A stretch of DNA of 32,000 nt from assembly GCA_001766815.1 (NCBI GenBank), contig LYOS01000002.1:60001-92000 (forward strand). The letters are read 5' to 3'. Below, in pieces: positions 12,070 through 32,000 of the stretch. The notes below the pieces were generated by a model. It made no database searches, was not told where the DNA came from, and saw nothing but the letters and a program-made list of their open reading frames with translations. How positions within the stretch are numbered: position 1 is the first letter of the stretch; each line of letters starts with the position of its first letter. The DNA comes from Candidatus Syntropharchaeum caldarium. Lineage in GTDB: Archaea; Halobacteriota; Syntropharchaeia; Syntropharchaeales; Syntropharchaeaceae. Both the position numbers and the translations under genes were made by a program.

Positions 12070-12104
12070 AAAAGAAAAAATAGTCTGTTTCCAGACCTAT
12101 TTTA
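12070..12104. terminator. Candidate bidirectional terminator between convergent genes
   Basis: Hairpin GTCTG-TTTC-CAGAC (12083-12096) is flanked by an A-run (AAAAAGAAAAAA, giving a T-run on the minus strand) and CTATTTT on the plus strand. Confidence 0.35.
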
Positions 12105-17393: not shown

Positions 17394-17396
17394 CTT

Positions 17397-18965
17397 TCAG
17401 ATAATGCCACTTTTCAGTGCGTATTCGATGCCTGTGTCAGTATCTCCGGTGAAGATCGCCTTGCCCTTATCCATTACCGTAACCCTGTCACACACGAGCC
17501 GTACAAACTCAAGGTCATGGCTCACGATAAGAAACGTGGTCTTATGTTCGTTGCGACGGTTAATAATAGAGTTGGTTATCTGGTACATTGTCATCTCATC
17601 CAGTGTGCCTGTTGGTTCATCCAGTATCATTATCTTGGGGTCCTTGAGGATAATCGATGCAAATATTATCCGATGCTTCTCTCCCTCGCTAAGCTCATCG
17701 GGATATCGTTTCAAAATTCCCTCAATTCGTTCTTCACTAAACCCAACAAGCTCAAGGACGTCATAAATTTTCTCCTCTAAGATCTCTTCCGGCACTCCTG
17801 GTACAAATCCCTGCATATTTCTGTAAACTGTCTGGTATGCGGATAGCCCATATTCCTGGTGAAGTATGGCGATCTTTTCTTTGACACGCCCCCTTTGTAT
17901 GCCACGTTCACGCATATCCACACGTTCACCATCCAGTCGAACTGTGCAGACACCTTCAAATTCGGAACTGTCACCATTGATAATTGTAACAAGTGTTGTC
18001 TTACCTGCACCGCTATGTCCCAGAATCCCGTGTATCTCGCCTTCATAAATATCGAGCGATACGCCATCCAGTGCTTTTATAACACCCTCATCCACCGTGA
18101 AGTATTCCCTGCGAAGATCTCTGCACTGAATTATTGGTTCACCTTCAAAGTTAACAACCTGTTTCTTCGACAGACGTCGTTCAGCGATGAAACGTTCCAT
18201 TACCTTGCTTGTCTCTCCCTCAAAGACTGCCTTTCCTTCTATAAGCAATATCGATCGCGGGGCCACCTCAGGTATATACGATGTCAGATGTGACGCGATG
18301 AACGTTGTTCGCTCTTTCGAGATCTCTTTTATCACATCATACATCTCTTCTGATGATTTGGGGTCAAGCGTTCCCGTAGGCTCATCAAGCAGAAGCACCA
18401 TCGGATCTTTTGCGATCTGTCTTGCCATCACGACTCTTTGCTTCTCACCGCCGCTCAGGTCCCGTGCAATATGTTTGATCCTGTGTTCAAGTGAGACGAT
18501 CTTCACGATCTCATGTGCCCGTTCCATACGTGCATCGATCGGATAATCAGAGCTATGCAGAGCTGCAAGCACATTCTCGATAACAGACCGCATCGAATAA
18601 ATCCCGGTGGCTTCCTGAAACATGATCGCAACCCGCCGTTTTATCACATCGCGCATACCTTTATCAATCTCCCAGAAGTCAACCCGCTGGAGTTCCATCG
18701 CCGAACCACAGCGCGGGCATTCTGTGCGTGATGGAGTATCAACCCGCTCGCAATTCTCACAAAAGCGAATGTTGTAGTATATATGCCCGGCTGTTGGTCT
18801 ATATTCCTCCATGCCGCGCAATGTGTACATTAGTGCGCTTTTTCCAGCTCCACTTGCTCCAATAACACCGATTATATCGTTTTCTTCCACGCTCAGGTTT
18901 ATATTATCGAGTATCTTGTTGCCTCCCTTTTCGATGGAAAGATTTTCTATCTCTATAATCTTCAT
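17397..18965 (-). CDS. atwA: Methyl-coenzyme M reductase system component A2-type ATPase (tandem ABC NBDs)
   Basis: Two NBDs: GASGAGKSA/LSGGEKQR/LLLDEPTGTLD and GHSGAGKTT/LSEGEKHR/MILDEPTGTLD. A CxxC-x10-CxxC zinc ribbon (CENCERVDTPSRTECPRCG, nt 18708-18761) is inserted after the first Walker A, as in A2 proteins. I place the start at ATG 18965 (GGAGTGGG upstream) rather than the tracked TTG 18983. Confidence 0.85.
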   Translation of the reverse strand: MKIIEIENLSIEKGGNKILDNINLSVEENDIIGVIGASGAGKSALMYTLRGMEEYRPTAGHIYYNIRFCENCERVDTPSRTECPRCGSAMELQRVDFWEIDKGMRDVIKRRVAIMFQEATGIYSMRSVIENVLAALHSSDYPIDARMERAHEIVKIVSLEHRIKHIARDLSGGEKQRVVMARQIAKDPMVLLLDEPTGTLDPKSSEEMYDVIKEISKERTTFIASHLTSYIPEVAPRSILLIEGKAVFEGETSKVMERFIAERRLSKKQVVNFEGEPIIQCRDLRREYFTVDEGVIKALDGVSLDIYEGEIHGILGHSGAGKTTLVTIINGDSSEFEGVCTVRLDGERVDMRERGIQRGRVKEKIAILHQEYGLSAYQTVYRNMQGFVPGVPEEILEEKIYDVLELVGFSEERIEGILKRYPDELSEGEKHRIIFASIILKDPKIMILDEPTGTLDEMTMYQITNSIINRRNEHKTTFLIVSHDLEFVRLVCDRVTVMDKGKAIFTGDTDTGIEYALKSGII

Positions 18966-19000
18966 AGACCCACTCCGTTGCAAACTTAAATCAAGGCTTA

Positions 19001-19780
19001 TTAATTCTTTTCTGTTTTTGCAGACAATGGCATGAGCGTAGAGGTTCTGTAATATAGATCATTTATACGCGCATATTTTGCACCCCAGAACTCAACCACC
19101 TCTTCAACCGTGCCTGCTGTACCTGTGGCAGTATAGGTAACCTCCATCCCCTCCTCAATCTCTGGTGCTGTTTCGATGGCTTTCTCTTCGCCAGACTCGA
19201 CAAAGACGATTCGTTTTATTTCCTCAGTACTTCGCAGTGGAGTGATATGCCCCCTGATGACACCTGTGATAATACCAACAACCCTACCTTTTGTGAGTCT
19301 CTTCTCTGGTAGGGGGCGAACATACTTGGTATCAACCCCCTCACGTGCCAGATCCTCGTAATCGATTGGACACTGGCATATCACGATCGATGGCTTATCG
19401 AAGAGTTTGAGAAAGTAGATTTGCTTATAAATTATATGTCGTGCGACATTGCCGTGGTGAAATATGAGTAGTTTTGAACGTTCGATCCGTTCGCGCTCAT
19501 CCTCTTCCAGTTTGAATTCAACCTTCACAAAATGCTGTTCCGCCTTGATACCTTTTCCCTTACGAAGGACAAGCACCGATGCTTTGATCCCATACGCACG
19601 CAACCGCTGTGTTATATCACAGACTGGATATGGGATGTGTCGATCCGAAAAGTCCATCGCGATTATCAGTGCATCCTCGCCATACTCATCCGAGTGCGTG
19701 CCTCCACGCGCTATACCGTAACCAAGCCCCCCTCCAAACTTTGCCCTACAGTTGACATAGTGGGCCTTTCTGCCTATCAT
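19001..19780 (-). CDS. McrC/Mmp7-family protein (Mmp7-like, with about 60-aa C-terminal extension)
   Basis: 259-aa ORF colinear with McrC: MIGRKAHYVNCR..GGGLGYGIARGGT, HIPYPVCDIT, SVLVL, HHGNVARHIIYK, PSIVICQCPIDYEDLAR, VVGIITGVIRG. The extra C-terminal beta-rich tail fits the Mmp7 branch. Confidence 0.75.
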   Translation of the reverse strand: MIGRKAHYVNCRAKFGGGLGYGIARGGTHSDEYGEDALIIAMDFSDRHIPYPVCDITQRLRAYGIKASVLVLRKGKGIKAEQHFVKVEFKLEEDERERIERSKLLIFHHGNVARHIIYKQIYFLKLFDKPSIVICQCPIDYEDLAREGVDTKYVRPLPEKRLTKGRVVGIITGVIRGHITPLRSTEEIKRIVFVESGEEKAIETAPEIEEGMEVTYTATGTAGTVEEVVEFWGAKYARINDLYYRTSTLMPLSAKTEKN

Positions 19781-19794
19781 AAATCACACCTTTC

Positions 19795-20655
19795 TTATAC
19801 AGATGGAACACTCAGCGGAAGTTCAATGATTATATCGTCCTGTGTGCCCCTCTTTATGCTGCCAAACTCACCGAGTTTACCAAAGTAAAATTCCATCTCT
19901 CCGAGTTTCTCTGCATATTCATCATAGGATGCGTTCACTCTGAGACCGCTCATTTTGAGTACCACGTTCACACCAAACTTTGATTCAATCTCGGTTTTTA
20001 TATAGGGATAGGTTGCAGGAACATCAGGTCGAAGGCTTCCGATGATCGAGATTACACTCTCCATAAATGCACCTATTATCCGTTTATCATCAGGATCATC
20101 GAACATCGTTGGTATCCTTGTAATAGACGGGATGAAAATCAGCTCATCATCAGACTCAAGATCTGCATAGCCTGTCACGATCACAGGTACATTAAGCCTT
20201 CTGCAGAGTTCCATCTTCTCACGGATACAGTGCTCAAAACATCCAAACATGAAGATCGCCAGATCGTGCTCCTCGATCATCATCCGCTCTTCCCTCATCA
20301 GAATCGCCTTTCTGCCAACGCCTCTTGCAGGTGCGATTGTGTTCACCTTTGCGCCAGCCTGCCGCAGTGTCTCAACCGTGCTGCAGTGTGGAAAGGGTGT
20401 GTGATGAAGATTAAATGAGGGGATGATCACCGCAACTTCGATACCATAGAGCGGTACAGTGATAACCCTTCCTGAATGCTTACGGAGAGCTGCCCGTTTA
20501 CGCAGAATGTTCACCGATTCATGATCTATCATCACATCAAATTCTGCAACACCACCCATCTGGTCTATGTTCAGGACAAAACCGCCAAGATCCTCTATGA
20601 ACTCAATTATTTCGTCTGATTCAAACGCATTTCCGATATATTTTAGCGGCATCAT
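19795..20655 (-). CDS. Cys-containing protein of unknown function in the A2/Mmp7 operon
   Basis: 286-aa ORF, 14 nt from the Mmp7-like gene. It has conserved-looking Cys/His patches (HHTPFPHCST, FMFGCFEHC). I cannot assign it to a marker family. Confidence 0.45.
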   Translation of the reverse strand: MMPLKYIGNAFESDEIIEFIEDLGGFVLNIDQMGGVAEFDVMIDHESVNILRKRAALRKHSGRVITVPLYGIEVAVIIPSFNLHHTPFPHCSTVETLRQAGAKVNTIAPARGVGRKAILMREERMMIEEHDLAIFMFGCFEHCIREKMELCRRLNVPVIVTGYADLESDDELIFIPSITRIPTMFDDPDDKRIIGAFMESVISIIGSLRPDVPATYPYIKTEIESKFGVNVVLKMSGLRVNASYDEYAEKLGEMEFYFGKLGEFGSIKRGTQDDIIIELPLSVPSV

Positions 20656-20673
20656 TTTTATTCCACGCCGTAT

Positions 20674-22455
20674 TCAGCTCAGATGGAAATACCTGTATGC
20701 ATCTCCCGTATCCTCAATCTCACCGCCTTTTGAGACAAAGTCGGCGTACTTTCGATTGACAAATTCATTACAGATAGTCTCAGGATCGCCTGTCATCAGA
20801 ATTTCGCCACGGTGTATCAGCAGTGCCCGGTGTGCAAGCTCCTTCACCGCATCCAGTTGATGGCTCACGAGGATTATTGTGAGGTTGTGCTCCTTGTTGA
20901 GGGTTTTTATTGCATTTATACATTTACGCAGCGAGATAGGATCGAGATCTCCGAAAGGCTCATCGAGCAAGAGGACCTCTGGCTTCTCCGTCATGTGAAG
21001 AGCAAGCGCAACCCGTATCTGCTCACCTGCACTGAGTTCATATGTATAGTGATCCATGAGAGAAAGAGGAAGATCGAGCGCTTCAAATATGGGTTTCATC
21101 CGCTTTTTAGCTTCGTCTGCAGGTATCGTTGGGAATAACTTCCTCAGAATCCCTGGATCAAGTTTCAGCTCCCTGAGCATGTCTTTCATCTCATCTTCTG
21201 GCAGATCTGCAAGTCTATAAAGTACATCCAGCTTCACGTCACTTAGTCCCATTTCTCTCGCCCGTTCGACCACCTCAGGCAGGAATCGCACGTCCTTTAG
21301 CCCAAGTTTCTGCTCAAAGAGGTGCAGCACGATTTCATAGTGCGTGAGCGCAAACTCCTGATGTAACGTTGAGATGTTAAGACGCGCCTTTACAGCATCA
21401 TAACCATAGGTACAGATATTTGTCCAGCGCTCTTCACCACCATCGTTGATCCTGTAGGTAACCTCACCAAACTGAGGAGGTTCAAGTCCTGCAAGCAACC
21501 TGATCAGTACTGTCTTTCCAGCAGCACATGGTCCAACGAGTGCAAGTATCTCGCCTTCGTAGATATCGAAGTTGAGATTTTTCATCTGGATCGTCTCGAT
21601 AAACTTTGCACCTGATGTGGTTATCTGGTAACGCTTCCAGAGGTTGGTGAGGCGCATCTTCGGCACTTCTCGTGGTATCGATGGCTCAACGGGTTGATCG
21701 ATCTTTGCAACAAACTTTTTAATGATCTCATCTGGTTTCCCCTCATCAACCACCTTTCCTTCCTCAATCCAGAGCACCCTATCAGCGAGAGTTTCGTGTA
21801 TTTCTGGCATATGAGAGACAAATACAACAGTAACACCAGCATTCTCATTTATTTTTTTTATCGCATCAAGCATCATCCCTCGACCAACAGGATCTATCAT
21901 GGTGGCTGGTTCATCTACAAGAAGAACACGTGGATTTGCTGCGAGCTGTCTCGCAAGCAGAACACACTGCTTCTCACCGCCGCTGAGGATATTGTAGTAG
22001 TAATACTTCTTATCCAACATGCCAACAATATCAAGAATCTCGGAGGCCCGTTTGAAGAGTCGTTTATAGTCGTTTGAACCTGTTGTAGGTATCTCTTCAA
22101 AACCTGTCTCAAGCTTTCCCAGTTTTCGCATCACATTATTTATCACACTCTCAGGCCATAGTGCAAACGAACGTTGCAGATGCAGTGCGGTTATCTTCTG
22201 GAGTTCAAGCTGTTCATTGGAATTAGAGTCAGGTGTGAGTGTGATACCATCAACCCTTACAGATCCTTCTTTAAATGATTCCACGCCCCTTAAAATTCGC
22301 AAGAGTGTGGTTTTTCCTGCACTGCTCCTTCCTAATATACCCAGAACTTCACCCTCATCGACTGAGAACGAGACGTTCTCAAGAGCAGTGTGTTCTTTCT
22401 CAATCTTTGAGATCTGATAAGTCTTCGTTAAATTTTCTACTTCGATGATCTTCAT
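20674..22455 (-). CDS. Divergent tandem-NBD ABC ATPase (A2 paralogue-like), first gene of the operon
   Basis: 593-aa ORF with strong SD AAGGAGGT. NBD1 is GRSSAGKTT/LSGGEKQ/LLVDEPATMIDP. NBD2 is GPCAAGKTV/LSAGEQIR/LLLDEPFGDLD. About 165 aa separate Walker A and signature in NBD2 (a helical insert). No TM segments and no zinc ribbon. Confidence 0.75.
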   Translation of the reverse strand: MKIIEVENLTKTYQISKIEKEHTALENVSFSVDEGEVLGILGRSSAGKTTLLRILRGVESFKEGSVRVDGITLTPDSNSNEQLELQKITALHLQRSFALWPESVINNVMRKLGKLETGFEEIPTTGSNDYKRLFKRASEILDIVGMLDKKYYYYNILSGGEKQCVLLARQLAANPRVLLVDEPATMIDPVGRGMMLDAIKKINENAGVTVVFVSHMPEIHETLADRVLWIEEGKVVDEGKPDEIIKKFVAKIDQPVEPSIPREVPKMRLTNLWKRYQITTSGAKFIETIQMKNLNFDIYEGEILALVGPCAAGKTVLIRLLAGLEPPQFGEVTYRINDGGEERWTNICTYGYDAVKARLNISTLHQEFALTHYEIVLHLFEQKLGLKDVRFLPEVVERAREMGLSDVKLDVLYRLADLPEDEMKDMLRELKLDPGILRKLFPTIPADEAKKRMKPIFEALDLPLSLMDHYTYELSAGEQIRVALALHMTEKPEVLLLDEPFGDLDPISLRKCINAIKTLNKEHNLTIILVSHQLDAVKELAHRALLIHRGEILMTGDPETICNEFVNRKYADFVSKGGEIEDTGDAYRYFHLS

Positions 22456-22515: not shown

Positions 22516-22584
22516 GAAGATCTATTTTTGGATTGAGGAGGGTTAATCATTTAATTTTTCTAAAGAGCTGTCATGTCCACAACC

Positions 22585-22592
22585 TTTATATC
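22585..22592 (+). promoter_or_regulatory. Candidate TATA box for the plus-strand cytochrome operon
   Basis: CCACAACC-TTTATATC lies 55-62 nt upstream of ATG 22647. Confidence 0.4.
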
Positions 22593-22646
22593 TCGCACAT
22601 GCGATAAGTTAATGTAAGGTAAAGAGTCAGAAATGATCAGCGAAAG

Positions 22647-23342
22647 ATGAAAAAACACACACCGCTTCTGCTCATGATCGCCGTACTTGCGATCGGTATA
22701 TTCGCACTCCCCCAGAGCGTTGCGCTTTTCTCAGGTCAGCATTCATGGTATAATCTCACTCCACAGGGTAACGATGTACCCTGTGAAAAATGTCATGGCG
22801 ACATCGCTTCAGAGATTGCATCAAGTGGTGCACACAAAAATATCGAGTGCGGCGGATGTCACAGAGCAGATGCAAGGGTTGGCTATGCCGGGGACTGGGA
22901 GGGGGATGTGGATCCAGGACAGGGTGCACACGCGGCATCGACTATTGAGTGTATGATCTGCCATGACAGGGGCACAAACTTCACACACTCCAATATCGGA
23001 AGTGATGAGTGTTCTGACTGTCACACCTCGCCTTTTGTGGCGCCTGGGGCAGGAGGCTTCAATCTGACTGATCCTTCTGTCTTGCCGTCTGATACCGGCA
23101 CAAAAGCCGCACACATGCAGTTTGTCCATGACGCGATCAACGAGACGCTCATGGAGGGTGCAAACGAAGCCTGTATAGCATGTCATACGCATGTGGGTGT
23201 CAACATCACATGGACGAAGAACGTGGTGCTCAACTTTGAAGCATCAGAGAATGAGACTGGAAGCTGGTCGATCCCTGAGTTTTCAGCAACAGGGGATAAT
23301 GTGACAGAATCAAACTATACAAACACCTGGGTAAATACTTAA
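22647..23342 (+). CDS. Pentahaem c-type cytochrome with N-terminal TM/signal anchor
   Basis: 231-aa ORF with five CxxCH motifs (CEKCH, CGGCH, CMICH, CSDCH, CIACH). N-terminus [30 protein letters not shown]. Paralogue of 14423-15157. Its stop is 13 nt before the giant cytochrome ATG. Confidence 0.85.
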
Positions 23343-23355
23343 AAGGGGGGTTAAA

Positions 23356-26300
23356 ATGAATGAAGGAATGAAAAAGGTCAAAATCTTTATTCTCGTATTG
23401 CTTATGATCGCATCACCGTTTTCGATGCTTACTGCAGGTGCTGCTATCGATGGCTCAAAGCATGACTTCACGTTTGAGAGTGAACTTACGCCAAATGGTG
23501 CGTGTTCCGCCTGCCATGAGTGGCGTACCATGACGTGGGCACGAAACCTGAGTGAAGAGGAGGCTTATTTTAACCAGACAGAAGATCCAAACTACGTCCA
23601 TGATCCTACCATAAAATGCTATGACTGTCACAGTGGCACTGCGGCAGACAATGATCCCAGTTACACGCTTTTTATCAATACAACACTTGGCAGATATATC
23701 CCGCAGGACGTTGCCTTTGATGCCAATATGAAGGGAAACGATCTATCCTATGACAGCTCACCCTCTGATGATGAGACCGGATACTACGAGTCATCGACAT
23801 CAGGCCACTACATAAAGACGAACGCAACAGGCCTGACGAATATTGAACCTGGTGATAAGCTCCCATGCACCGACTGTCATGAACCACACGAGACAGAACC
23901 CACAAATGAGGTCTTCATAAAAGGAAGCTCCGAATATCCACTTGGTGGAAAGGTTGTATCAAACTTAAAAGCAAGCACAAACACCCGATCTGGTACTGGC
24001 ACTGGACGTGAGATCTGTGCGGTATGTCATGGATACAGCGATTCAGGCATAGCTGTCAGGTTTGTTGATGTTAATCCCCTCTATGGCTCGACCGATAGGA
24101 TCGTTCAGACCCCGTCAACGGTATCCCAGCATGCAGAGAATGATTCAACACCATGCACAGACTGCCACTCACATAGCACCCCGGCATCGTATTTTGTCGG
24201 AATCAGCAGCCACAACACCCACTTAACCGCCGAGTTTGGACCCAAAATATCCTCGTGCACAGGTGCCGATGGCTGTCACAGTGAGGGAAACTTCAGCCGC
24301 TTCAACGACAACCTCACACTCTCAGCGACTCATGCCTGCGATAACTGCCACAGCCCGAATGGAACATACAATGGTGTCACCCTTGCCAAGGCAAGCTGGG
24401 AAGAAGGCGTCTACAACGGCACAGACTTAAAATCAAGCAAGGAGAAGTGGTGTGCAAGCTGTCATGATAAAGAACCTGCCAGCTCTATGGGGAATGGAAG
24501 CGGTATAAACGCCCCGAATATCGTCGGGATGAATCTAAGCGGTAGCTGGCAGAGCCCCGTCGCTATTATAACAAATCAGACGGAAAACGTCAGTGATGCA
24601 ACAAACCTGCTGGATGGTGACGTTGAGACCGGTGCGAGTGTGAGTGGGGCATCCCAGATCGTCTTTGATCTTGGAGAGAGTACAGAAGTCTCCCATATCA
24701 GGCTTTACACATCTGCCAGTTCCACGGTCAAGTGGGAGGTGTACGGGAGCAATGATCTTTCAAACTGGACGAGAATACTCTATGGTCAGGATGTGATCTT
24801 TTCCGCTCCTGCATGGCTTACAGGTGAAGATGAGGGATGGGATGAGAGCAGGGTTGACAGGATCATACCTGTGAGATACATCAAGCTCTACAAGAGGAGT
24901 CCGTGGCCCGTGGGGAGTGGTTCTCAGCGTGAGTTTGAGTATAAAGCAGATATACGGTATGGATACTATACCACCGGTCACAAGATTGCCTGCACCAACT
25001 GCCACAATAGAAGTAGCGCGCATATCGATGGAACCTCACAGACCTACAACACAACCCTTGATAACTATCAGACAGGTTTCAGGCTGAAATATCTTGAGGT
25101 TGAGAATGAAACCGTCCCCTCACTTGAGATACCAAGAGTCGACTGTAACTGGGGTGATTATCCAAAAACCTCAAACGACTTTGCACTCTGTTTCTCATGC
25201 CACAACAAGTATAACCTCCTCGGGGATGCGAGTGGTACAGGCGACTACCATAAGGATCCACCCCAGACAAACTTCAGGAACAACACCACAAACGCCCACC
25301 TCATCCATCTGCAGGGAAGGGGATACTGTGGAAACAATCCTGACTGGGACTCAGACTGGAACGGCACAGCAGACTCACCACAGAGTTGCACCGCGTGTCA
25401 CAATGTTCATGGCTCTCCTGCTCCTGCGATGACAAGACACGGAGAACTTGTGAGTATCAACGATACCCTTGAGAAGGCTCCCCTCCTGAACCTGAAGTAC
25501 ATAAACGCAGACGGAGAGCTTGATCATAATCTCTCAGATGCCACCCAGAGTATCGGCGGAAGGACACAGTTCTATGGTGCAGGACCCGGAAACGTTGCGA
25601 AGAATAAGGTGTGTAACATGTGCCACAATGATCAGATTACCTATTATCGCACACCAGTACCTCCCACCGTAACCTGTGGTAATGGATCAGGAACAGGAGG
25701 CTGCCACAGCCCCACCGCATACTCTTCCTCTGCAGCAGGCAGCCACAATACTCATCTAACCGCACCCAGGGGACCAAACATAACATCCTGCACAGGTGCT
25801 GATGGCTGCCACAAAGGCAACCACACCGGTCTCTTCAACGATGGTTTACCGCTATCAACAACCCACAGATGTGATAACTGCCACAGCCCGAACGGGACAT
25901 ACGATGGTGTGAATGACTCCACAATCGGAGCAAAACCCAACTGGGAAAATGGAGTGTACAACAATTCCACGACATTAAAGTCAGGCAAAGAGAAGTGGTG
26001 TGCAGGATGCCATGATGACGAACCGGCGTATAGTAAGGCAGAGTACAGCGAGGTCATCGTGGATAACACCGAAGCTTCTTTTGCTGGTTCATGGAGTACA
26101 TCCTCTCACTCAACCGATTATGGAAGCAACTACAGATACAATGGTGCAGGTTCAGGCACTGAAACAGCAACGTGGACACCTAACCTGCCAGAATCTGGTA
26201 ATTACTCGGTCTATGCATGGTGGCCCATATATGTTTCAGGAAGAGCAACGAATGCACCGTACACCGTGTACTACAGCAGCGGGTCTGAGACGGTAAGGGT

Positions 26301-29300
26301 GAACCATAAAGCAGGAGGGGGTGGCTGGAACTACATCGGCACATGGAACTTCTCTGCTGGAACATCAGGTTACGTTGTGCTCAGTGATGATGCCGATGGA
26401 ATTGTAATGGCTGATGCCATCAGATTTGTTAAAGGCGGGAATGCCACGTACGCACCCAATATCATCGGTGATAATACAAGCTATGGGTTCTATGCAACAG
26501 GTCATGGTCGAAGCGGTGTTGTGGATTGCCTGTCCTGTCATGATTCAGATAAAACCCATATCGATGGAATTCAGCGAACGTATGAAGCAAATGAGACAAC
26601 AGGTGATGCGATCACACCCTACAATAACAGCTACCGTTTAAAGGATCTTGATGGGTTGCCAGCGATGGTAATGCCAAGAAAAACAACATCCACATTTAAT
26701 ATGCAGGCCTACTGGCGGGATTTTAACCTCTGTTTTGACTGTCACAACAGGTTTGAGGTGCTGGGTGAAACATCATCGGATATCAGTAACACCAACTTCT
26801 GGAATAATGATTCAAGTATCTCAAACTCACACTGGCTCCATCTCGGGATAGATAGCAAGCACTTTGACTCTGATTATGACAGTTCTGCAGACTCACGTGA
26901 GAGCTGCATCGCATGCCACAACGTACACGGTTCGCCAACAGGACCGATGATAAGACATGGAGAACTTATAAGCTATCCAAGTACAGCGAACAAGGAGCCT
27001 GCGCATAATTTCTACTATCTTCTCCCTGGAGATGGTTCAGCCACTGCCAGGTTTACACCCACACTTGCAGGCGGAACATATGATATCTATGCATGGTGGA
27101 GCTCGCACTCAAACCGTGCGACAAATGCAAAGTATATAATATACCATGATGGTGGTAGCGCTGAGGTAATCGTCAATCAGGAGGAGAACGGCTCACAGTG
27201 GAACCTCCTTGGCGAGTACAATATTACAACTTCAAACGGCACGGTCGTTCTGACATCAGATGGCGCCAACGAGTACATCATGGCAGACGGAATCCAGTGG
27301 AACAGAACAGATGGCGGAGATACTGTCTATGTTGATGAACCTGATGCCACCTATACTGGAAGCTGGACTGTGGAGACCTCAAACCCAGACAAATATTACG
27401 GAGATAGCACGAGATACTACTATGCACCCATCAGGAATGCGACTGCAAACGTGAATAAGAGTACTGGCGGCACCTTCTATGTAAGCGGTGTAATCACTGC
27501 AAATCATCTCTGTCAGATGTGTCATAGCAACGTCCAGTACAACAGAGACCCGTATACCGGACCAAGAGTTCCATACAGTGATGCAACCCCTGATAACATC
27601 TCAAACTTTGAGAGTAACACTGTAACATTCACGGCTTTCGTTACCGATGTGGATGAGAACATAGCAAATGTTACCATCGATCTCTCAAGTTTTGGTGGTA
27701 ACGTTAGCCAGAGGATGTACGATGACGGAACCCACGGTGATACCAAGGCAAATGATGGTGTGTATAGCTACCAGTTCACAGTGCCTGCAGGTGTTGATGA
27801 TGGTCCAAGGAGTATCACAGTCACCGCAACAGACGATGATGGTAATAGCGGTGAAGGTCTGATCGATCTTACCGTCTATCAGCCAGGCGCACTGATCATC
27901 GATGATGAAGATGCAAGCTTCACCGGAACATGGGGAGAATCCACGGCAGACGAGACGACGTATGGAACAGGATACCGCTGGCATGCTTCAGGCACCGGGA
28001 GCAATACAGCAACGTGGAGTGTCAACATCACAACCGCCGGTAACTACACCGTCTACGCACGATGGGTTACAGGAAGCAACCGTGCTACAGATGCACCCTA
28101 CACGATTAACTATGAAGGAGGCAACGAAACAGTAAGGGTTTCACAGCGGATAAAAGGAGGAAAGTGGAACCGTCTTGGCAACTACTACTTTGACGTCGGC
28201 GAGTACTCGGTCGTTCTCACAGATGATGCTGATAACTACGTTATAGCTGATGCGATAAAGCTTGAATCTGAAGCCCCTCCAGCTTACCACCCATGGCCAA
28301 TCGCCGACAATCCCGATGCTGAATACAACGGAACAGGATGGTATACTGGAACAGCCGATAGCGGTTATTATGGCTCAGACTTCTACTACCATGCCTCAGG
28401 CACAGGAGAAAATACCGCAACATGGACACTCGCAGTTCCAGAAGCTGGAAAGTACGATGTGTACGCATGGTGGGCAGACGGCTCAAACCGTGCAACCAAT
28501 GCACCCTATATGATTAACTACGAAGGAGGCAGTGAAACAGTAAGGGTTTCACAGAAAATAAATGGAGGAAAGTGGAACCTGCTTGGGACATATTCATTCA
28601 ATGCAGGTAACTATTCAATAGTACTCAGTGACGATGCAGATGGATTCATCATTGCCGATGCAGTGAAGTTTGAGCTTAACCAATCTGTATGGCTCACCCC
28701 TTCCTCAATCCAGTGCACAAACCTCACCAACGCTTCACTCCTGATCGATAACAGCACATCAACTGCCAACGCGCTTGATACCGGAGATGAACAGTATGTG
28801 GTCTTTGATCTTGGTGCAAGATACACCGTTCCATCGATCAAGATGTACACTGATGGTAGCGGCAACTACACATGGGATGTCTATATGGGGGATAACATAT
28901 CTGATCCTGCCTGTTGCAACCATTCAAGCTGGGGCACGCCTGTCCTTGAGAACTGGACTCCCTCTACTTCGGGGTGGAACGAGGTCAACCTGACAACACC
29001 CGCCACAGCGAGATACATAAAGCTCATGCGAAACGATACAGGTGATGATCTTGCCGCAGACAGCCTCTATGAGTTCATGTTCGACCCACCAACGGCAACG
29101 CTCACCTTTGAACTCCACTCATACGCTGATATGCATATCTATGACCCGGAGGATCGCCATCTCGGGATGAACTACACGACAGGCGAGATCGAGAACCAAA
29201 TTCCCGGAGCAGTATATGACTTCGGTGATGTCCAGACTGCTACCCTGCCAAAGCTTGCAGTGGGGGAGTACAGGGTGATACTCAAAGGAACGGGGACAGG

Positions 29301-30258
29301 TGGATATGAACTGACCGTCACGGGCGAGGATGATGATGGTGTACTCACCAGTGAGACCGTTGCTGGAAATATCACAGCAGGTGAGATCCATGATGCAACC
29401 GCAGCGGTTAACACCACAGACATCACAAACATCACGATAGCACTCGAAGATGAGCCAGAGCCAACGATCAATGCAGACGGAGTTGATAATGTCACACTCG
29501 CTGATCTCTATCCTGATATCGATGAGGTTGATATCGACCCCCTCGATCCTGAGACGATCGATACCACAGGGATGCCAGATATTGCCATTCACACCGCCTA
29601 CATGGTCAACGCCTCAGGAGATGGTGAGTACACACTGAGGTTTGAGGATGTGGAGAACGCTGAGCTTATCACTGCAGTCTATAAGATCAATGAAGAGGGT
29701 GAATGGATCGAGCTTCCAGCAGTGATCAATGGATCGAGAGTTGAGGTTACGATGGAAGCAGGTGATCCACCGGTTATTTTTGCATATCCAGCACCAGAAA
29801 CACCGACTACAGATGACACAAACACCGCATCAACAGGTGGTAGTGGTGGTGGGGGCGGCGGAGGTGCAGGCCCGAAGGACTCAGATGGTGATGGTGTACC
29901 CGATCGTCAGGAGCAGCTTGATGGGACAGATCCTCTCAACCCTGATACAGATCATGATGGACTGAACGACTTTGAGGAGCGTGTGGCAGGAACAGACCCG
30001 AACAATCCTGATACCGATGGTGACGGAATAATCGATGGTGAAGATCCGGATCCAGCGATTATGAACTTCACACAGAAGGTGAAGAAGACCTTCTCTGATA
30101 TTTCAGATACCATCTTTAGATCGGGTTCAGAGAATGCGCCGGTACCATCTTCAGAGAGCGGTGCAGAAGAGAAGACGCCAGGGTTTGGAAGCTTTGCCTG
30201 GATCGTAGCAGTTCTTGCTATGGGGTATCTGGTAAGAAGGGAAAAAGTTGAAAAATAG
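23356..30258 (+). CDS. Giant (2300 aa) secreted, PGF-CTERM-anchored multihaem cytochrome with interleaved beta-sandwich binding modules
   Basis: SD AGGGGGG lies 5 nt upstream. Signal peptide [26 protein letters not shown]. There are 17 CxxCH, 2 CX4CH and 1 CX8CH between nt 23503 and 27525. Discoidin-like, golvesin-C-like and Ig-like domains, TSP type-3 repeats and a PGF-CTERM follow; see the sub-features. Confidence 0.9.
24204..25626 (+). repeat. Haem supermodule 1 (internal duplication unit)
   Basis: Ordered motifs: [53 protein letters not shown], [discoidin-like insert], [55 protein letters not shown]. Confidence 0.75.
24544..24942 (+). other. Discoidin / F5-8 type C-like domain A
   Basis: [56 protein letters not shown] shows the typical DG...T.W...(I/V).(F/V)DLG....(I/V)..(I/V).(L/M)Y pattern of discoidin/CBM32-like modules. 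Confidence 0.55.
26050..26436 (+). repeat. Golvesin-C/Xly-CBD-like domain copy G1
   Basis: [116 protein letters not shown]. Confidence 0.6.
27004..27452 (+). repeat. Golvesin-like copy G2 (N-terminally shortened) plus a trailing N-terminal half-copy
   Basis: G2 reads [89 protein letters not shown]. It is followed by [34 protein letters not shown] (27322-27452), which has only the first strands. Confidence 0.5.
27592..27882 (+). other. Ig-like beta-sandwich domain
   Basis: [84 protein letters not shown]. It appears homologous to the N-terminal visible part of the dockerin protein at 31805-32000. Confidence 0.5.
27889..28266 (+). repeat. Golvesin-C/Xly-CBD-like domain copy G3
   Basis: [120 protein letters not shown]. 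Confidence 0.6.
28291..28675 (+). repeat. Golvesin-C/Xly-CBD-like domain copy G4
   Basis: Same pattern as G3. It shares perfect nucleotide runs with G3 at a 408-nt offset (gaaacagtaagggtttcacag at 28126-28146 vs 28534-28554, and ggaggaaagtggaacc). Confidence 0.6.
28690..29085 (+). other. Discoidin / F5-8 type C-like domain B
   Basis: [71 protein letters not shown] parallels domain A. Confidence 0.5.
29878..30054 (+). repeat. Thrombospondin type-3-like Ca-binding repeats
   Basis: [59 protein letters not shown], preceded by a Gly-rich linker [12 protein letters not shown] (29836-29871). Confidence 0.7.
30178..30255 (+). other. PGF-CTERM archaeosortase sorting signal
   Basis: The C-terminal ..[30 protein letters not shown] consists of a PGF motif, a hydrophobic helix and a basic tail, at the extreme C-terminus. 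Confidence 0.8.
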
Positions 30259-30279
30259 AAAAGGCTGGATTCACTTAAA

Positions 30280-31590
30280 TTAAAATATCTGCTGTGGAGG
30301 AGTGTTAGCTCCTCCCGGTGTTGTATTCTCAAAGATTGCAAAGTCGTTGCTATCAACGTCTGTATCCATGCCATCGGGGTATCTGCCTGCAGACGCACCA
30401 TCTTCTGGTGCCTCAGCATTGTCTGAAACGTCGCCATCATCGAAGTCACCGTATGTAACTCTATCGATCACATTCCCGCCATTTTTCAGGATGATGGTAT
30501 CTCCGCCATTGTTGAGTCCGAACGAGAAATCAGTGGACTTGTTCAGCAGCAAGAACCCATTTGCAGGTATTGTTTTTCCGTTTAGACTTGCAGGTGAAGC
30601 AGTGTTATCCTCGATCGTCCAGTCATCAAGCGAAATATCCTCGTCCATCAGGTTGTAGAGTTCGATCCATTCTGAATCACCTGGTAAAGGATCTGAAAGA
30701 AACTCATTCACAACAACCTTCGGGACAGCATCACCCGCTTCGATCGTAAATGTCCCATCAACCACCCTATGTGTGATCTCATCCACACCGTCTGTGAGTG
30801 ATATAACCGTAAGATCGAGTGGGCTTGTGTCACCAATAGCCCCAACTGCTTCAAAGGTAATCTGAGCAAAGACCACATCGCCTGTAAGGCTCGTTGGGAA
30901 GTTGAGGGCTGTGTACTGGATAGATCCAGCGCTGTTGTTGATATCTCTATATAGCGGGAAGTTGAACTCGCCATCGGCAACATCAAGCACCTGCACGACA
31001 TCTGGGTCGAAGTTCAGGATGATGTTTGCTCCCAGTCCCTGGTAGAGGTTCTCGATCATGATCGGAACTGTGGTAGTCTCACCTGCTTCACAGCTTAGAT
31101 TCTCTATCGATACGATCGTATCAAGCACGGTAAATGTCCCGTCAACCACTGTATGCGTGATCTCATCCATGCCGTCTGTGAGTGATGTAACCGTAAGATC
31201 GAGCGGGCTTGTGTCACCACCCTCACCAACTGCCTCAAAAGTTACCTCTGCAAAGACCACATCGCCTGTAAGGCTCGTTGGGAAGTTGAATGCCGCGTAC
31301 TGCACATATCCTGCCTCATTATCGATCTGGCTATAAACCGGGAAGTTGAAATCACTTCCATCTATATCAAGCACCTGCACGACATCTGGGTCGAAGTTCA
31401 GGATGATATTTGCTCCCAGTCCGCCATCAAGATTCTTGATTATGATTGGAACGGTCACACTCTCGCCTTTGCCAGCAGCCACATCCTCGATCGAGATGAC
31501 CGTCTCTTCGTTTGCAGCTGCTGTAATTACAAGAGCTGATGCTACAATGAGTATGGCAACCACAGATGCAGCCAGTTTATGCCTCATCAT
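30280..31590 (-). CDS. Secreted scaffold-like protein: 2 tandem cohesin-like domains + lamin-tail domain (LTD)
   Basis: 436-aa ORF with signal/TM MMRHKLAASVVAILIVASALVITAAA. Two 128-aa cohesin-like repeats (..VTVPIIIKNLDGGLGANIILNFDPDVVQVLDI..GDVVFAEVTFEAVGEGGDTSPLDLTV..). The C-terminal LTD reads VVVNEFLSDPLPGDSEWIELYN..DISLDDWTIED....GFLLL......GLNNGGDTIILKNGGNVIDRVTYGD. Confidence 0.8.
   Translation of the reverse strand: MMRHKLAASVVAILIVASALVITAAANEETVISIEDVAAGKGESVTVPIIIKNLDGGLGANIILNFDPDVVQVLDIDGSDFNFPVYSQIDNEAGYVQYAAFNFPTSLTGDVVFAEVTFEAVGEGGDTSPLDLTVTSLTDGMDEITHTVVDGTFTVLDTIVSIENLSCEAGETTTVPIMIENLYQGLGANIILNFDPDVVQVLDVADGEFNFPLYRDINNSAGSIQYTALNFPTSLTGDVVFAQITFEAVGAIGDTSPLDLTVISLTDGVDEITHRVVDGTFTIEAGDAVPKVVVNEFLSDPLPGDSEWIELYNLMDEDISLDDWTIEDNTASPASLNGKTIPANGFLLLNKSTDFSFGLNNGGDTIILKNGGNVIDRVTYGDFDDGDVSDNAEAPEDGASAGRYPDGMDTDVDSNDFAIFENTTPGGANTPPQQIF
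30736..31503 (-). repeat. Tandem cohesin-module duplication (2 x 384 nt)
   Basis: Perfect 40-nt (30866-30905 = 31250-31289) and 42-nt (30982-31023 = 31366-31407) matches at an exact 384-nt offset. Confidence 0.85.
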
Positions 31591-31601
31591 GGTAAACCAC
31601 C

Positions 31602-32000
31602 TCAGCGAAGCAGTTCATAGCCAGCAATCCCGTTAATATGTGATGCCAGATAGACCGCATCGAGCAGGTTGACAACACCGCTGCCATCAACGTCTGCAAT
31701 TCTCTCGTTCAGGTCATATCCAGGGACCCCGAGTGCATAGCATCCAAGATACACAACGTCATCCTCATCCACATCACCATCATCATCGACATCGCCGTTC
31801 TTTTTCACAGTGAGCTCAACACTGACCGATGTCTCTGAGAGACCGGGTGCATTTGTTGCGTTGACTGGCAGGAGATACGTACCTGGTGTGGTTCCATCAC
31901 TTGCATTTGTTACAATTGTGTAAACACCTCCGCCAGTATCAGTCATCACTGCTTCACTATCTCCACCTATCTGAGATAGATCGATCGTAACCGAATCGAT
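31602..32000 (-). CDS. Dockerin-bearing surface protein, 5'-truncated by the window edge
   Basis: The frame is open to nt 32000 with no stop upstream of the tracked GTG 31949. The C-terminal type-I-like dockerin has two Ca-binding segments, NGDVDDDGDVDEDDVVYLGCYALG and IADVDGSGVVNLLDAVYLASHING (about 31605-31802). It is preceded by an Ig-like domain, VTIDLSQIGGDSEAVMTDTGGGVYTIV... Confidence 0.75.
   Translation of the reverse strand: MDSVTIDLSQIGGDSEAVMTDTGGGVYTIVTNASDGTTPGTYLLPVNATNAPGLSETSVSVELTVKKNGDVDDDGDVDEDDVVYLGCYALGVPGYDLNERIADVDGSGVVNLLDAVYLASHINGIAGYELLR

What the first reader, a model, noticed from the sequence alone, without database searches (positions are those of the whole stretch)
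22647..32000. Candidate cell-surface electron-transfer and adhesion locus: pentahaem cytochrome, 20-site giant cytochrome, cohesin scaffold and dockerin protein
Four adjacent genes all encode exported proteins. A TM-anchored pentahaem cytochrome (22647-23342) ends 13 nt before a 2300-aa PGF-CTERM-anchored multihaem protein (23356-30258). Convergent to these, 21 nt away, is a 2x cohesin + LTD protein (30280-31590), preceded 11 nt upstream by a dockerin-bearing protein (31602 to beyond 32000). Cohesin-dockerin pairs are the assembly principle of cellulosomes. Here the pair sits next to extracellular redox proteins rather than glycoside hydrolases. The dockerin protein also shares an Ig-like module with the giant cytochrome. 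This suggests a modular, non-covalently assembled surface complex for electron transfer, attachment, or both. Large S-layer-associated cytochromes and scattered cohesin/dockerin domains have been noted in ANME-type genomes. I am not aware of a functionally described locus with this composition.
Basis: partly seen in the sequence, partly recalled or inferred. Interest (0 to 1): 0.85.

Follow-up and report, generated by a model that had tools for sequence, protein, structure and literature searches.

The report
Nanowire-type cytochrome cassette beside unrelated cohesin–dockerin pair
In a butane-oxidising archaeon, a two-gene cassette for extracellular electron transfer (a nanowire-type cytochrome plus a giant sugar-binding cytochrome) sits next to a separate cohesin–dockerin gene pair. 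The two units look like independent neighbours, not parts of one machine.

Summary
The window is from Candidatus Syntrophoarchaeum caldarius. All four genes and domain calls are real.

**Cytochrome unit (22573-30258, +).**
- The 231-aa "pentahaem" protein is a full-length homologue of the Archaeoglobus veneficus extracellular cytochrome nanowire subunit (PDB 8E5G, E 2e-37).
- The 2300-aa protein has 20 haem sites, all within aa 41-1390.
- It also has four xanthan-lyase-type carbohydrate-binding modules, two discoidin modules, TSP3 repeats and a C-terminal anchor.
- It fits none of the described ANME giant-cytochrome types.

**Cohesin-dockerin unit (30280 to beyond 32000, -).**
- It encodes a 303-aa dockerin protein with no redox or enzyme cargo and a 2x cohesin + LTD protein.
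- The pair is conserved in another Syntrophoarchaeum species, where it lies among housekeeping genes.

**No link between the units.**
- No homologous locus joins them, they are convergent, and neither cytochrome carries a cohesin or dockerin.
- The proposed cellulosome-like cytochrome complex is therefore not supported.

**New observations.**
- The cytochrome cassette occupies different genomic contexts.
- A 95%-identical, truncated, transcribed copy lies beside transposase remnants in Ca. Ethanoperedens thermophilum, which belongs to another class. This indicates recent horizontal transfer between alkane oxidisers that share one bacterial partner.

The parts
22573..30240 (+). Cytochrome cassette: promoter region, cyt5 and the giant cytochrome. 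This is the block shared at 98% nt identity with contig L003, whose flanks differ on both sides.
   Evidence: blastn window vs L003. The breakpoints were read directly from the sequences.
22586..22593 (+). TTTATATC, a candidate archaeal TATA box about 55-60 nt upstream of the cyt5 ATG. It lies just inside the left end of the conserved block. This is an inference only.
   Evidence: Sequence read. The match to the archaeal TATA consensus is from general knowledge and was not tested.
22647..23342 (+). cyt5: 231-aa secreted cytochrome c of the AvECN family (Archaeoglobus veneficus extracellular cytochrome nanowire subunit). It has four family-invariant CXXCH (aa 46, 68, 102, 176) and a fifth (aa 122) in a variable insertion.
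   Evidence: - phmmer vs PDB 8e5g_A: E 2.2e-37 over aa 8-231.
- Family profile vs PDB: E 7.9e-68.
- 8e5g is the only significant Foldseek hit.
- Invariant Cys and His columns.
- Family size of 322 clusters.
23356..30258 (+). Giant 2300-aa multihaem cytochrome (GenBank OFV67993.1, annotated 'Fibronectin type III domain protein').
23476..27525 (+). Haem-bearing part of the giant (aa 41-1390). It holds all 20 haem sites, interrupted by one discoidin and two Golvesin_C modules.
   Evidence: Motif positions. Segment-wise Pfam scan.
24586..24900 (+). F5/8 type C (discoidin, CBM32-like) module 1, aa 411-515.
   Evidence: Pfam E 9.8e-9. PDB 4a42 CBM32 module, E 0.0026.
26053..26430 (+). Golvesin_C module 1 (aa 900-1025), homologous to the C-terminal module of Paenibacillus xanthan lyase.
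   Evidence: Pfam E 5.1e-38. PDB 6f2p residues 905-1038, E 3.1e-24.
26992..27297 (+). Golvesin_C module 2 (aa 1213-1314; partial match to the profile).
   Evidence: Pfam E 2.9e-24.
27583..27876 (+). Ig-like module (aa 1410-1507; contains a choice-of-anchor-X motif). It is weakly similar to the Ig-like module of the dockerin protein.
   Evidence: NCBIfam NF041940 E 1.6e-9. Weak Big_9/Big_13 hits. BLASTP 30% identity, E 0.004.
27895..28674 (+). Golvesin_C modules 3 and 4 in tandem (aa 1514-1637 and 1649-1773).
   Evidence: Pfam E 3.8e-36 and 2e-37. 408-nt direct repeat.
28723..29031 (+). F5/8 type C (discoidin) module 2, aa 1790-1892.
   Evidence: Whole-protein F5_F8_type_C_2 score 30.5 bits against a cut-off of 27.8, two stretches. 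Segment scan E 6.7e-6.
29944..30075 (+). Bacterial TSP3 calcium-binding repeats (about aa 2197-2240).
   Evidence: Pfam TSP3_bac E 1.3e-13, two stretches.
30175..30255 (+). C-terminal anchor: PGF motif, hydrophobic helix and basic tail. It resembles PGF-CTERM but scores below threshold.
   Evidence: Pfam 14.7 bits vs 18.8 and TIGR04126 13 vs 24.5. Homologues P0005 and P0006 end in a plain TM helix.
30241..30281 (.). Junction between the two convergent units. Near-identical contigs L003 (cytochrome side) and L006 (cohesin side) both lose identity to the window here.
30280..31590 (-). Cohesin/LTD protein of 436 aa (OFV67994.1): N-terminal helix, cohesin 1 (31126-31506), cohesin 2 (30742-31122), LTD (30448-30726). 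It has no C-terminal anchor.
   Evidence: - Pfam.
- AF2 model.
- Foldseek vs PDB cohesins.
- Listed as LPMCJDNI_00455 in PMC9012536 S4 Data.
31602..32000 (-). 3' part (133 codons) of the dockerin protein gene: Ig-like module (31806-32000) and dockerin (31632-31796). The full protein is 303 aa, judged from L006.
   Evidence: - Translation.
- Pfam Dockerin_1.
- PDB dockerin hits, E 2e-4 to 1e-2.
- Full-length sequence, identical over the 133 aa.

Best explanation
The 9.4-kb region of Ca. Syntrophoarchaeum caldarius holds two independent, convergently transcribed two-gene units. This archaeon oxidises butane and hands its electrons to the sulfate reducer Ca. Desulfofervidus.

**Unit 1 (22573-30258, + strand): an extracellular electron-transfer cassette.**
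- cyt5 is exported and belongs to the family of the A. veneficus cytochrome nanowire subunit. I infer that it polymerises, or at least stacks, into a haem chain outside the cell.
- The co-transcribed 2300-aa cytochrome is tethered to the membrane by its C-terminus.
- From the membrane, about 900 haem-free residues project outward: TSP3 repeats, an unassigned region, a discoidin module, two xanthan-lyase-type carbohydrate-binding modules and an Ig-like module.
- At the far end sits a 1350-residue part with 20 haems, interleaved with more glycan-binding modules.
- I infer that the giant protein fixes a redox-active surface to a polysaccharide. Candidates are the cell's own envelope glycans, the consortium matrix or the partner's surface. 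It would exchange electrons with the small cytochrome filaments.
- Its haems are far from its membrane anchor, so it needs other cytochromes such as cyt5 to be charged.

**Unit 2 (30280 to about 32513, - strand): a small cohesin-dockerin system.**
- A two-cohesin/LTD protein can hold up to two copies of the adjacent 303-aa dockerin protein.
- The dockerin protein's cargo is an unassigned ~100-aa domain plus an Ig-like module. It has no redox cargo.

**Relationship.** The adjacency of the two units is a genome-arrangement accident of this lineage. It does not indicate a joint complex.
For: **Shown**
- Identity of cyt5. Conserved haem and His columns.
- An AvECN-like gene lies next to giant homologues in L003, in L004 (four copies) and in L087.
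- The gap is 13 nt, with a G-rich ribosome-binding site.
- Domain map and haem positions of the giant.
- High sequon density in both cytochromes.
- The dockerin-to-cohesin/LTD pair, with an 11-14 nt gap, is conserved in L005 and L006. Between species dN/dS is 0.15-0.25 at dS about 1.
- Relatives P0042 and P0043 carry cohesin, LTD and dockerin on a single chain.
- No cytochrome lies near the pair elsewhere, and no cohesin/dockerin lies near the giant elsewhere.
- Published tables show no cytochrome domain in any dockerin/cohesin protein.
- The cassette has other neighbours in L003 and in Ca. Ethanoperedens.

**Inferred**
- Filament formation by cyt5.
- Glycan binding by the Golvesin_C and discoidin modules. 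The xanthan-binding modules of P. nanensis enzymes are classed as CBM84 (PMC11002231).
- Membrane-to-outside topology of the giant.
- Cognate binding of this dockerin to these cohesins.
Against: - No expression or protein data for these four genes could be reached.
- cyt5 has a fifth haem that AvECN lacks, and its AF2 model is poor (pLDDT 62.7). Polymerisation is therefore unproven.
- The conserved N-terminal segment (P22, T24, F28, G30, Q31, H32) could instead mean a retained membrane anchor.
- Near-identical strain contigs L003 and L006 both end within about 55 nt of the junction. They show that the junction sequence varies. They do not prove that the two units are apart in those strains.
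- Only one long locus (L005) documents the cohesin-dockerin pair in another context.
- The published tables missed this weak dockerin, so weak dockerins on cytochromes could also have been missed.
Confidence: 0.65

Rival explanations
1. One reading: the two-cohesin scaffold and the dockerin protein assemble with the neighbouring cytochromes into one cellulosome-like, non-covalent surface complex for electron transfer and adhesion.
For: - The four exported-protein genes are physically adjacent.
- The cohesin and dockerin modules are genuine.
- The dockerin protein and the giant share a weakly similar Ig-like module.
- The giant has calcium-binding TSP3 repeats whose loops superficially resemble dockerin loops.
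Against: - The orientation is convergent.
- The dockerin cargo has no haem.
- Pfam finds no cohesin or dockerin on either cytochrome at E <= 0.1.
- Synteny is absent in every other informative locus.
- The published domain tables of dockerin/cohesin proteins from 40 genomes (PMC9012536 S4 Data) contain none of the four cytochrome Pfam accessions searched.
- This genome has many cohesin/dockerin genes: 18 Pfam cohesin rows and 14 dockerin rows in its table. It also has many cytochromes, so one chance adjacency is unremarkable.
Confidence: 0.07
2. cyt5 is not a filament subunit. It is a membrane-anchored entry cytochrome, analogous to CymA or NrfH. Its retained N-terminal helix places a haem at the membrane surface, where it takes electrons from the membrane carrier pool and passes them to the giant cytochrome.
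For: - The N-terminal hydrophobic segment and the following LF(A/S)GQHxWY motif are among the best-conserved parts of the family, which is unusual for a cleaved signal peptide.
- There are weak NrfH/NrfB-type hits.
- PMC9012536 suggested such a role for small anchored cytochromes.
Against: - The NrfH model scores 23 bits against a cut-off of 134.
- cyt5 is homologous over its full length to a protein solved as an extracellular filament.
- The solved chain has 220 modelled residues of 262, consistent with loss of the N-terminal segment. Which residues are missing was not checked.
- The giant's haems lie about 900 residues from its own membrane anchor.
Confidence: 0.2
3. The 95%-identical copy in the Ca. 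Ethanoperedens genome is an assembly or binning artefact (Syntrophoarchaeum DNA mis-joined), not horizontal transfer.
For: Both organisms come from Guaymas Basin enrichments of the same laboratory. The E50 genome was built by mapping long reads onto the E37 genome.
Against: - The copy is 5% diverged from the S. caldarius gene, with dS 0.157.
- It has its own diverged signal-peptide region.
- It is present in the E37 genome, the E50 genome and a third 35-kb contig.
- It lies inside a 1.92-Mb closed contig between transposase remnants and argG.
- It is transcribed at the level of its neighbours in the ethane culture.
Confidence: 0.04

Closest known systems
AvECN, the extracellular cytochrome nanowire subunit of Archaeoglobus veneficus (PDB 8E5G; Baquero et al. 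2023, as cited in PMC12954529 and PMC11176372)
   Same: - cyt5 aligns over its full length, at roughly 45% identity by my reading of the printed alignment and E 2.2e-37.
- It has the same four CXXCH motifs and conserved histidines.
- It has the same N-terminal hydrophobic segment and a similar size.
   Different: - cyt5 has a fifth CXXCH in a variable insertion. This variant occurs in 42 of the 150 best family representatives.
- Filament formation is untested.
- Here the gene is coupled to a giant cytochrome gene.
ANME large multihaem cytochromes, types A, B and C (Chadwick et al. 2022, PMC9012536)
   Same: - It is an archaeal cytochrome with 20 or more haems from an archaeon that depends on a syntrophic partner.
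- It has a C-terminal membrane anchor and an N-terminal haem-rich part.
- It has non-haem modules predicted to bind sugars, as proposed for type C.
   Different: - It has no S-layer (DUF1608), peptidase M6-like or pectin-lyase domain.
- Instead it has four Golvesin_C modules (homologous to the xanthan lyase C-terminal module) and two discoidin modules, TSP3 repeats and a PGF-like anchor.
- That paper states that similarly large archaeal cytochromes outside ANME are found only in Geoglobus and Ferroglobus.
Non-cellulosomal cohesin/dockerin proteins of archaea (A. fulgidus cohesin 2XDH; ANME-1, ANME-2 and Syntrophoarchaeum proteins catalogued in PMC9012536)
   Same: - The cohesin fold matches 2xdh with TM 0.81.
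- The dockerin has two DxDxDG loops.
- There is no glycoside hydrolase.
- Cohesin + LTD combinations also occur in ANME-1 fosmids.
   Different: - Here the cohesins and the dockerin are on two adjacent gene products, whereas relatives P0042 and P0043 have them on one chain.
- The dockerin of the 303-aa protein was not detected in the published tables.
Bacterial cellulosome (scaffoldin plus dockerin-bearing enzymes)
   Same: The assembly principle is the same: tandem cohesins on one protein and a type-I-like dockerin on another.
   Different: - There is no enzymatic cargo and no CBM on the scaffold.
- There is no SLH or sortase anchor.
- It has only two cohesins, and the organism is an archaeon that does not degrade polysaccharides.
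Geobacter OmcS/OmcE/OmcZ nanowires and Shewanella MtrCAB conduits
   Same: The proposed working principle is the same: stacked-haem proteins carry electrons from the cell envelope to an external acceptor.
   Different: - There is no sequence relationship beyond generic haem motifs (weak hits only).
- There is no outer membrane or porin.
- Here glycan-binding modules are fused to the cytochrome.

Membership tests
AvECN-type extracellular cytochrome nanowire subunit | Full-length sequence homology to the solved subunit (8E5G). | tested here: met
   phmmer E 2.2e-37, aa 8-231 vs 8-242. Profile E 7.9e-68.
AvECN-type extracellular cytochrome nanowire subunit | Four CXXCH motifs and distal histidines conserved. 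| tested here: met
   Invariant C46/C49/H50, C68/C71/H72, C102/C105/H106, C176/C179/H180 and H32, H63, H95, H156 across 41 sequences.
AvECN-type extracellular cytochrome nanowire subunit | Same fold as the solved subunit. | tested here: inconclusive
   8e5g is the only significant Foldseek hit (E 1.7e-10). The model has pLDDT 62.7 and TM 0.43-0.45.
AvECN-type extracellular cytochrome nanowire subunit | Polymerises into an extracellular filament with a continuous haem chain. | not testable with these tools
   Needs cryo-EM or proteomics of appendages from the Butane50 culture.
Cohesin-dockerin (cellulosome-type) assembly system | Cohesin module(s) with the cohesin fold. | tested here: met
   Pfam E 6.6e-19, two modules. 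AF2 pLDDT above 90. Foldseek matches to many cohesins with TM 0.75-0.81.
Cohesin-dockerin (cellulosome-type) assembly system | Dockerin with a duplicated calcium-binding segment. | tested here: met
   Dockerin_1 scores 24.6 bits vs 22.9 for the fragment and 22.9 for the full protein. PDB dockerins match at E 2e-4 to 1e-2. The loops DVDDDGDVDEDD and DVDGSGVVNLLD are visible.
Cohesin-dockerin (cellulosome-type) assembly system | This dockerin binds these cohesins. | not testable with these tools
Indirect support comes from the conserved gene pair and from single-chain fusions in relatives.
   The 303-aa protein has no CXXCH and no Pfam or NCBIfam family besides the dockerin and a weak Ig-like hit.
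ANME-MHC types A/B/C | More than 10 haem motifs and a C-terminal TM helix (types A and B). | tested here: met
   20 sites. C-terminal hydrophobic helix.
ANME-MHC types A/B/C | S-layer domain (A, B), peptidase M6-like domain (B) or pectin-lyase-like domain (C). | tested here: not met
   None appears among the Pfam hits at E <= 0.1 for the whole protein or for 14 overlapping segments.
PGF-CTERM / archaeosortase A substrate | C-terminal PGF motif, TM helix and basic tail recognised by the curated models. | tested here: inconclusive
   The tripartite sequence is present, but scores are 13-14.7 bits against cut-offs of 18.8 and 24.5. Presence of archaeosortase in the genome was not tested.
NapC/NirT/NrfH (CymA-like) quinol dehydrogenase (considered for cyt5) | Match to the family model. 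| tested here: not met
   TIGR03153 NrfH scores 23.2 bits against a cut-off of 134.2, over 28 residues only.
Xanthan-lyase-type CBM (Pfam Golvesin_C; CAZy CBM84 by my reading) | Sequence homology to the C-terminal module of Paenibacillus xanthan lyase. | tested here: met
   6f2p residues 905-1038 of 1040, E 3.1e-24. Four Pfam Golvesin_C modules. The CBM84 label rests on PMC11002231 plus my own recollection of which module it is.
Xanthan-lyase-type CBM (Pfam Golvesin_C; CAZy CBM84 by my reading) | Binds an acidic branched polysaccharide. | not testable with these tools
   Needs binding assays with recombinant modules.

The most novel reading that the evidence does not exclude
The cyt5 + giant-cytochrome cassette may be a horizontally mobile 'electrical connector'. 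Its xanthan-lyase-type carbohydrate-binding modules would recognise a glycan of the consortium matrix or of the shared partner bacterium, Ca. Desulfofervidus. Gaining, losing or truncating these modules would then tune how thermophilic alkane-oxidising archaea of different classes wire themselves to the same partner. Three observations fit this: the allele without the module block in L003, the truncated copy in Ca. Ethanoperedens, and breakpoints that recur at about aa 1776-1779.
Probability: 0.2. Interest if true: 0.8.

Novelty: new variant of a known kind. Interest (0 to 1): 0.45.

Why it matters
How alkane- and methane-oxidising archaea pass electrons to their sulfate-reducing partners is still unresolved. 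Candidates are nanowires, giant S-layer cytochromes and shuttles.

This locus gives three testable handles:
- **A filament candidate.** It is a homologue of a structurally solved archaeal cytochrome nanowire subunit. It sits in a cultured butane oxidiser and is genetically coupled to a giant cytochrome.
- **A new architecture.** The giant cytochrome replaces the S-layer domain of the ANME types with polysaccharide-binding modules. This points to the extracellular matrix or the partner's surface as the docking site.
- **Recent gene transfer.** This gene moved between two classes of archaea that share one partner species. That suggests the wiring hardware is exchangeable.

The analysis also removes a tempting but unsupported idea, the 'cytochrome cellulosome'.

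Tried and rejected
**Searches that gave little or nothing**
- Exact-sequence look-up of the window's own cohesin protein, and of the identical P0038, found nothing. The contig could not be extended directly. The missing part of the dockerin gene came from L006 instead.
- The genome-contig scan with the cohesin protein returned only an LTD match in a gammaproteobacterium.
- The metagenome scan used LTD-derived patterns, so most of its 79 loci are LTD-only.
- The homology search with the 133-aa dockerin fragment gave one 82-aa hit.
- Look-up of ECN homologue P0068 gave a 989-bp contig. P0007 gave a distant locus, probably bacterial, with two tandem giant cytochromes and no AvECN-like gene called or annotated.

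**Tools or papers not available**
- The papers by Laso-Perez et al. 2016 and Baquero et al. 2023 are not held. No expression data for Ca. S. caldarius could be reached.

**Results too weak to use**
- The AF2 model of cyt5 is low-confidence.
- phmmer of the cohesin protein against PDB found nothing. The fold search was needed.

**Features looked for and not found**
- No terminal direct or inverted repeats flank the cassette.
- No terminator-like site lies in the 21-nt convergent gap.

**Ideas rejected**
- The TSP3 repeats are not a cryptic dockerin: Pfam Dockerin_1 does not hit the giant.
- cyt5 is not an NrfH/CymA member.
- The giant is not an ANME-MHC of type A, B or C.

Full report
**Origin of the window.** The cohesin/LTD protein is 100% identical to GenBank OFV67994.1. 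The giant protein is OFV67993.1, annotated 'Fibronectin type III domain protein'. Both are from Candidatus Syntrophoarchaeum caldarius, on a 410,801-bp contig. A published table lists the cohesin/LTD gene at LYOS01000002.1:90280-91587(-). The window therefore corresponds to about 60001-92000 of that contig. The upstream genes fit this organism: methyl/alkyl-CoM reductase activation genes A2, McrC, Mmp3, Mmp7 and Mmp17.

**Check of the observation.**
- The four ORFs, their strands and the 13-, 21- and 11-nt gaps are as described.
- Pfam supports Cohesin (E 6.6e-19, two modules), LTD (E 3.7e-18), Dockerin_1 (24.6 bits against a 22.9 cut-off) and cytochrome c families in both cytochromes.
- An AF2 model of the cohesin/LTD protein has pLDDT above 90 in both cohesins. 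It matches solved cohesins, including the non-cellulosomal A. fulgidus cohesin.
- cyt5 has 5 CXXCH. The giant has 17 CXXCH, 2 CX5CH and 1 CX8CH.
- The PGF-CTERM call is below threshold, although the PGF / helix / basic-tail layout is visible.
- The 'shared Ig-like module' is a weak similarity: 30% identity, pairwise E 0.004.
- Sequon density is 3.0-3.5 per 100 aa in the cytochromes and 0-0.7 in cytoplasmic proteins of the window. This fits glycosylated extracellular proteins.

**The small cytochrome.**
- A search of 1.84 billion representative proteins found 322 relatives at E <= 1e-3, mostly 190-300 aa.
- An alignment of 41 members shows four invariant CXXCH motifs, four invariant histidines and a conserved N-terminal segment. 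The fifth CXXCH of cyt5 lies in a variable insertion.
- The family profile hits one solved structure over its whole length: 8E5G chain A, E 7.9e-68. cyt5 alone gives E 2.2e-37.
- 8E5G is the cryo-EM structure of the Archaeoglobus veneficus extracellular cytochrome filament, AvECN.
- cyt5 is therefore a member of the AvECN family. Its N-terminal hydrophobic segment is more likely a signal peptide than a permanent anchor, but this is not proven.
- A 49%-identical paralogue with degenerate haem motifs lies at 14423-15157(-).
- Homologues of AvECN in related archaea (Methanoperedenaceae, Methanocellales) have already been noted in the literature.

**The giant cytochrome.**
- A segment-wise Pfam scan places all 20 haem sites between aa 41 and 1390.
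- Inserted in or following that part are:
  - two F5/8 type C (discoidin) modules (aa 411-515 and 1790-1892);
  - four Golvesin_C modules (aa 900-1025, 1213-1314, 1514-1637 and 1649-1773);
  - an Ig-like module (aa 1410-1507);
  - about 240 unassigned residues;
  - TSP3 calcium-binding repeats;
  - the C-terminal anchor.
- The Golvesin_C modules are homologous to the last 134 residues of the Paenibacillus xanthan lyase structure 6F2P (E 3.1e-24). Xanthan-binding modules of P. nanensis enzymes are classed as CBM84 (PMC11002231). That the matched segment is this module is my inference from its position.
- The protein has none of the S-layer, peptidase M6-like or pectin-lyase domains that define ANME-MHC types A, B and C.
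- The membrane anchor is C-terminal and the last 900 residues carry no haem. The haem-rich part must therefore sit far from the membrane and needs another carrier to be charged. This is an inference from the domain order.

**The cohesin-dockerin pair.**
- Contig L006 is 97.7% identical to window 30281-32000. It supplies the whole dockerin gene.
- The protein is 303 aa: an N-terminal hydrophobic segment, an unassigned domain of about 100 aa, an Ig-like module and the dockerin. It has no CXXCH and no other family hit.
- Its dockerin matches solved dockerins at E 2e-4 to 1e-2.
- The same gene order, dockerin protein then cohesin/LTD 11-14 nt later, occurs in L005. L005 is from another Syntrophoarchaeum species with about 75% nt identity.
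- Between L005 and the window/L006 sequences, dS is about 1 and dN/dS is 0.15-0.25. Both genes are under purifying selection.
- More distant relatives carry cohesin, LTD and dockerin on one chain. This supports a functional tie between the two gene products.

**Are the two units linked?**
- They are convergent.
- The following loci carry homologues of the giant and have no cohesin or dockerin nearby:
  - L002 (Ca. Ethanoperedens, with 10 kb on each side);
  - L004, L086 and L087;
  - L089, a distant homologue.
- L005 has no ORF with two or more CXXCH in 14.6 kb. Neither do the other cohesin/LTD loci.
- By contrast, AvECN-like genes accompany the giant in L003, in L004 (four copies) and in L087.
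- L003 is 98% identical to the window from 22573 to 30240, apart from an internal indel. It has unrelated sequence on both sides. L006 loses identity at 30281.
- Both contigs end within about 55 nt of that point. The junction is therefore variable, but separation in those strains is not proven.
- The supplementary tables of PMC9012536 list every domain of every dockerin/cohesin protein in 40 genomes, including this one. They contain no cytochrome Pfam accession, and this genome's table has no mention of haem.
- This genome has many cohesin and dockerin rows. A single chance adjacency to one of its many cytochrome genes is therefore not surprising. This last point is an inference.

**Horizontal transfer.**
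- The best hit of the giant is a 1776-aa protein of 'Methanoperedenaceae archaeon GB50' on a 1,920,273-bp contig. This matches the 1.92-Mb closed genome of Ca. Ethanoperedens thermophilum (PMC7175092).
- Nucleotide identity is 95.1% over window 23412-28680. It starts after the signal-peptide region and stops at aa ~1776.
- That copy has no cyt5. It has transposase remnants upstream and argG downstream.
- It is transcribed at 250-273 RPKM, similar to its neighbour argG.
- dS between the two copies is 0.157 (dN/dS 0.17). This compares with dS about 1 between two Syntrophoarchaeum species. Yet the two hosts belong to different classes.
- This indicates a recent transfer between two thermophilic alkane oxidisers that both partner with Ca. 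Desulfofervidus.
- The allele in L003 lacks aa 892-1778, which includes all four Golvesin_C modules. The module boundary near aa 1776-1779 is therefore a recurrent breakpoint.

**Most likely mechanism.**
- Shown:
  - the family memberships, domain order and haem positions;
  - the conserved pairing within each unit;
  - the lack of conserved pairing between the units.
- Inferred:
  - cyt5 forms or joins an extracellular haem chain.
  - The giant protein is tethered by its C-terminus and holds a 20-haem surface in a polysaccharide layer through its binding modules.
  - The two cytochromes exchange electrons on the route to the partner.
  - Separately, the cohesin/LTD protein holds up to two copies of the 303-aa dockerin protein at the cell surface, for an unknown, non-redox purpose.

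**Novelty.**
- Cohesin/dockerin proteins in these archaea, AvECN homologues and giant archaeal cytochromes are all known kinds.
- Three things appear undescribed in the papers I could read:
  - this cytochrome architecture (haem modules interleaved with xanthan-lyase-type and discoidin modules);
  - its tight coupling to an AvECN-family gene;
  - its recent transfer to Ca. Ethanoperedens.
- I could not read Laso-Perez et al. 2016 or Baquero et al. 2023, so prior mention there cannot be excluded.

Noticed in passing
window 23412-28680; L002 10060-15332: A 95.1% nt-identical, truncated copy (1776 aa) of the giant cytochrome lies in the closed genome of Ca. Ethanoperedens thermophilum, which belongs to another class. 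It sits next to transposase remnants and is transcribed at about 260 RPKM. dS is 0.157, against about 1 between two Syntrophoarchaeum species. This indicates recent horizontal transfer.
   Followed up: yes
window 14423-15157 (-), with 13290-14219 (-): This is a second AvECN-family gene, 49% identical to cyt5, with only three intact CXXCH. One site reads CDCH and one is lost. It is followed by a multi-pass membrane protein with no family hit.
   Followed up: partly
window 15943-22455 (-): This is a CoM-reductase activation cluster: Mmp3 (C-terminal half only), Mmp17, component A2, a McrC-like gene and an Mmp7-like gene. It also has a second, divergent 593-aa A2-like double ABC ATPase. The last three score below their curated cut-offs. 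This may relate to the multiple alkyl-CoM reductases of this organism.
   Followed up: no
L003 2406-7529 vs window 23356-30258: A strain-level allele of the giant cytochrome is 97-98% identical in the shared parts but lacks aa 892-1778, which includes all four Golvesin_C modules. It carries about 300 aa of another haem module instead. Its breakpoint coincides with the end of the Ethanoperedens copy.
   Followed up: partly
L004 3969-10978: A Halobacteriota MAG has four AvECN-like genes arranged around a 1300-aa homologue of the giant cytochrome. The coupling of the small and the giant cytochrome therefore extends beyond Syntrophoarchaeum.
   Followed up: partly
L005 10001-11284: In the related Syntrophoarchaeum species, the cohesin/LTD reading frame is interrupted by one in-frame stop between cohesin 2 and the LTD. 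It could be a split gene, a pseudogene or a sequencing error.
   Followed up: no
Hahn et al. 2020 Table S3 (PMC7175092), genes FHEFKHOI_00652-00656: Genes FHEFKHOI_00652-00656 of Ca. Ethanoperedens are consecutively numbered 'multiheme cytochrome' genes. They include its most highly expressed cytochrome (about 14,800 RPKM). One of them (FHEFKHOI_00653) has as best hit RLG32678.1. Its accession is one below RLG32679.1, a fragment of the giant cytochrome, so it may be the neighbouring gene. The array may therefore also be AvECN-family.
   Followed up: no
P0029 (Thermodesulfobacteriota MAG protein, 1686 aa): A bacterial multihaem cytochrome also carries a Golvesin_C module. The cytochrome plus Golvesin_C combination is therefore not confined to archaea. 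It occurs in the phylum that, as far as I recall, contains the partner bacteria; that placement was not checked here.
   Followed up: no
window 12097-13170 (-): This is a URO-D family protein (E 9.8e-52). From general knowledge, this is the fold of methylcobamide:CoM methyltransferases. It lies between the cytochrome paralogue and housekeeping genes.
   Followed up: no
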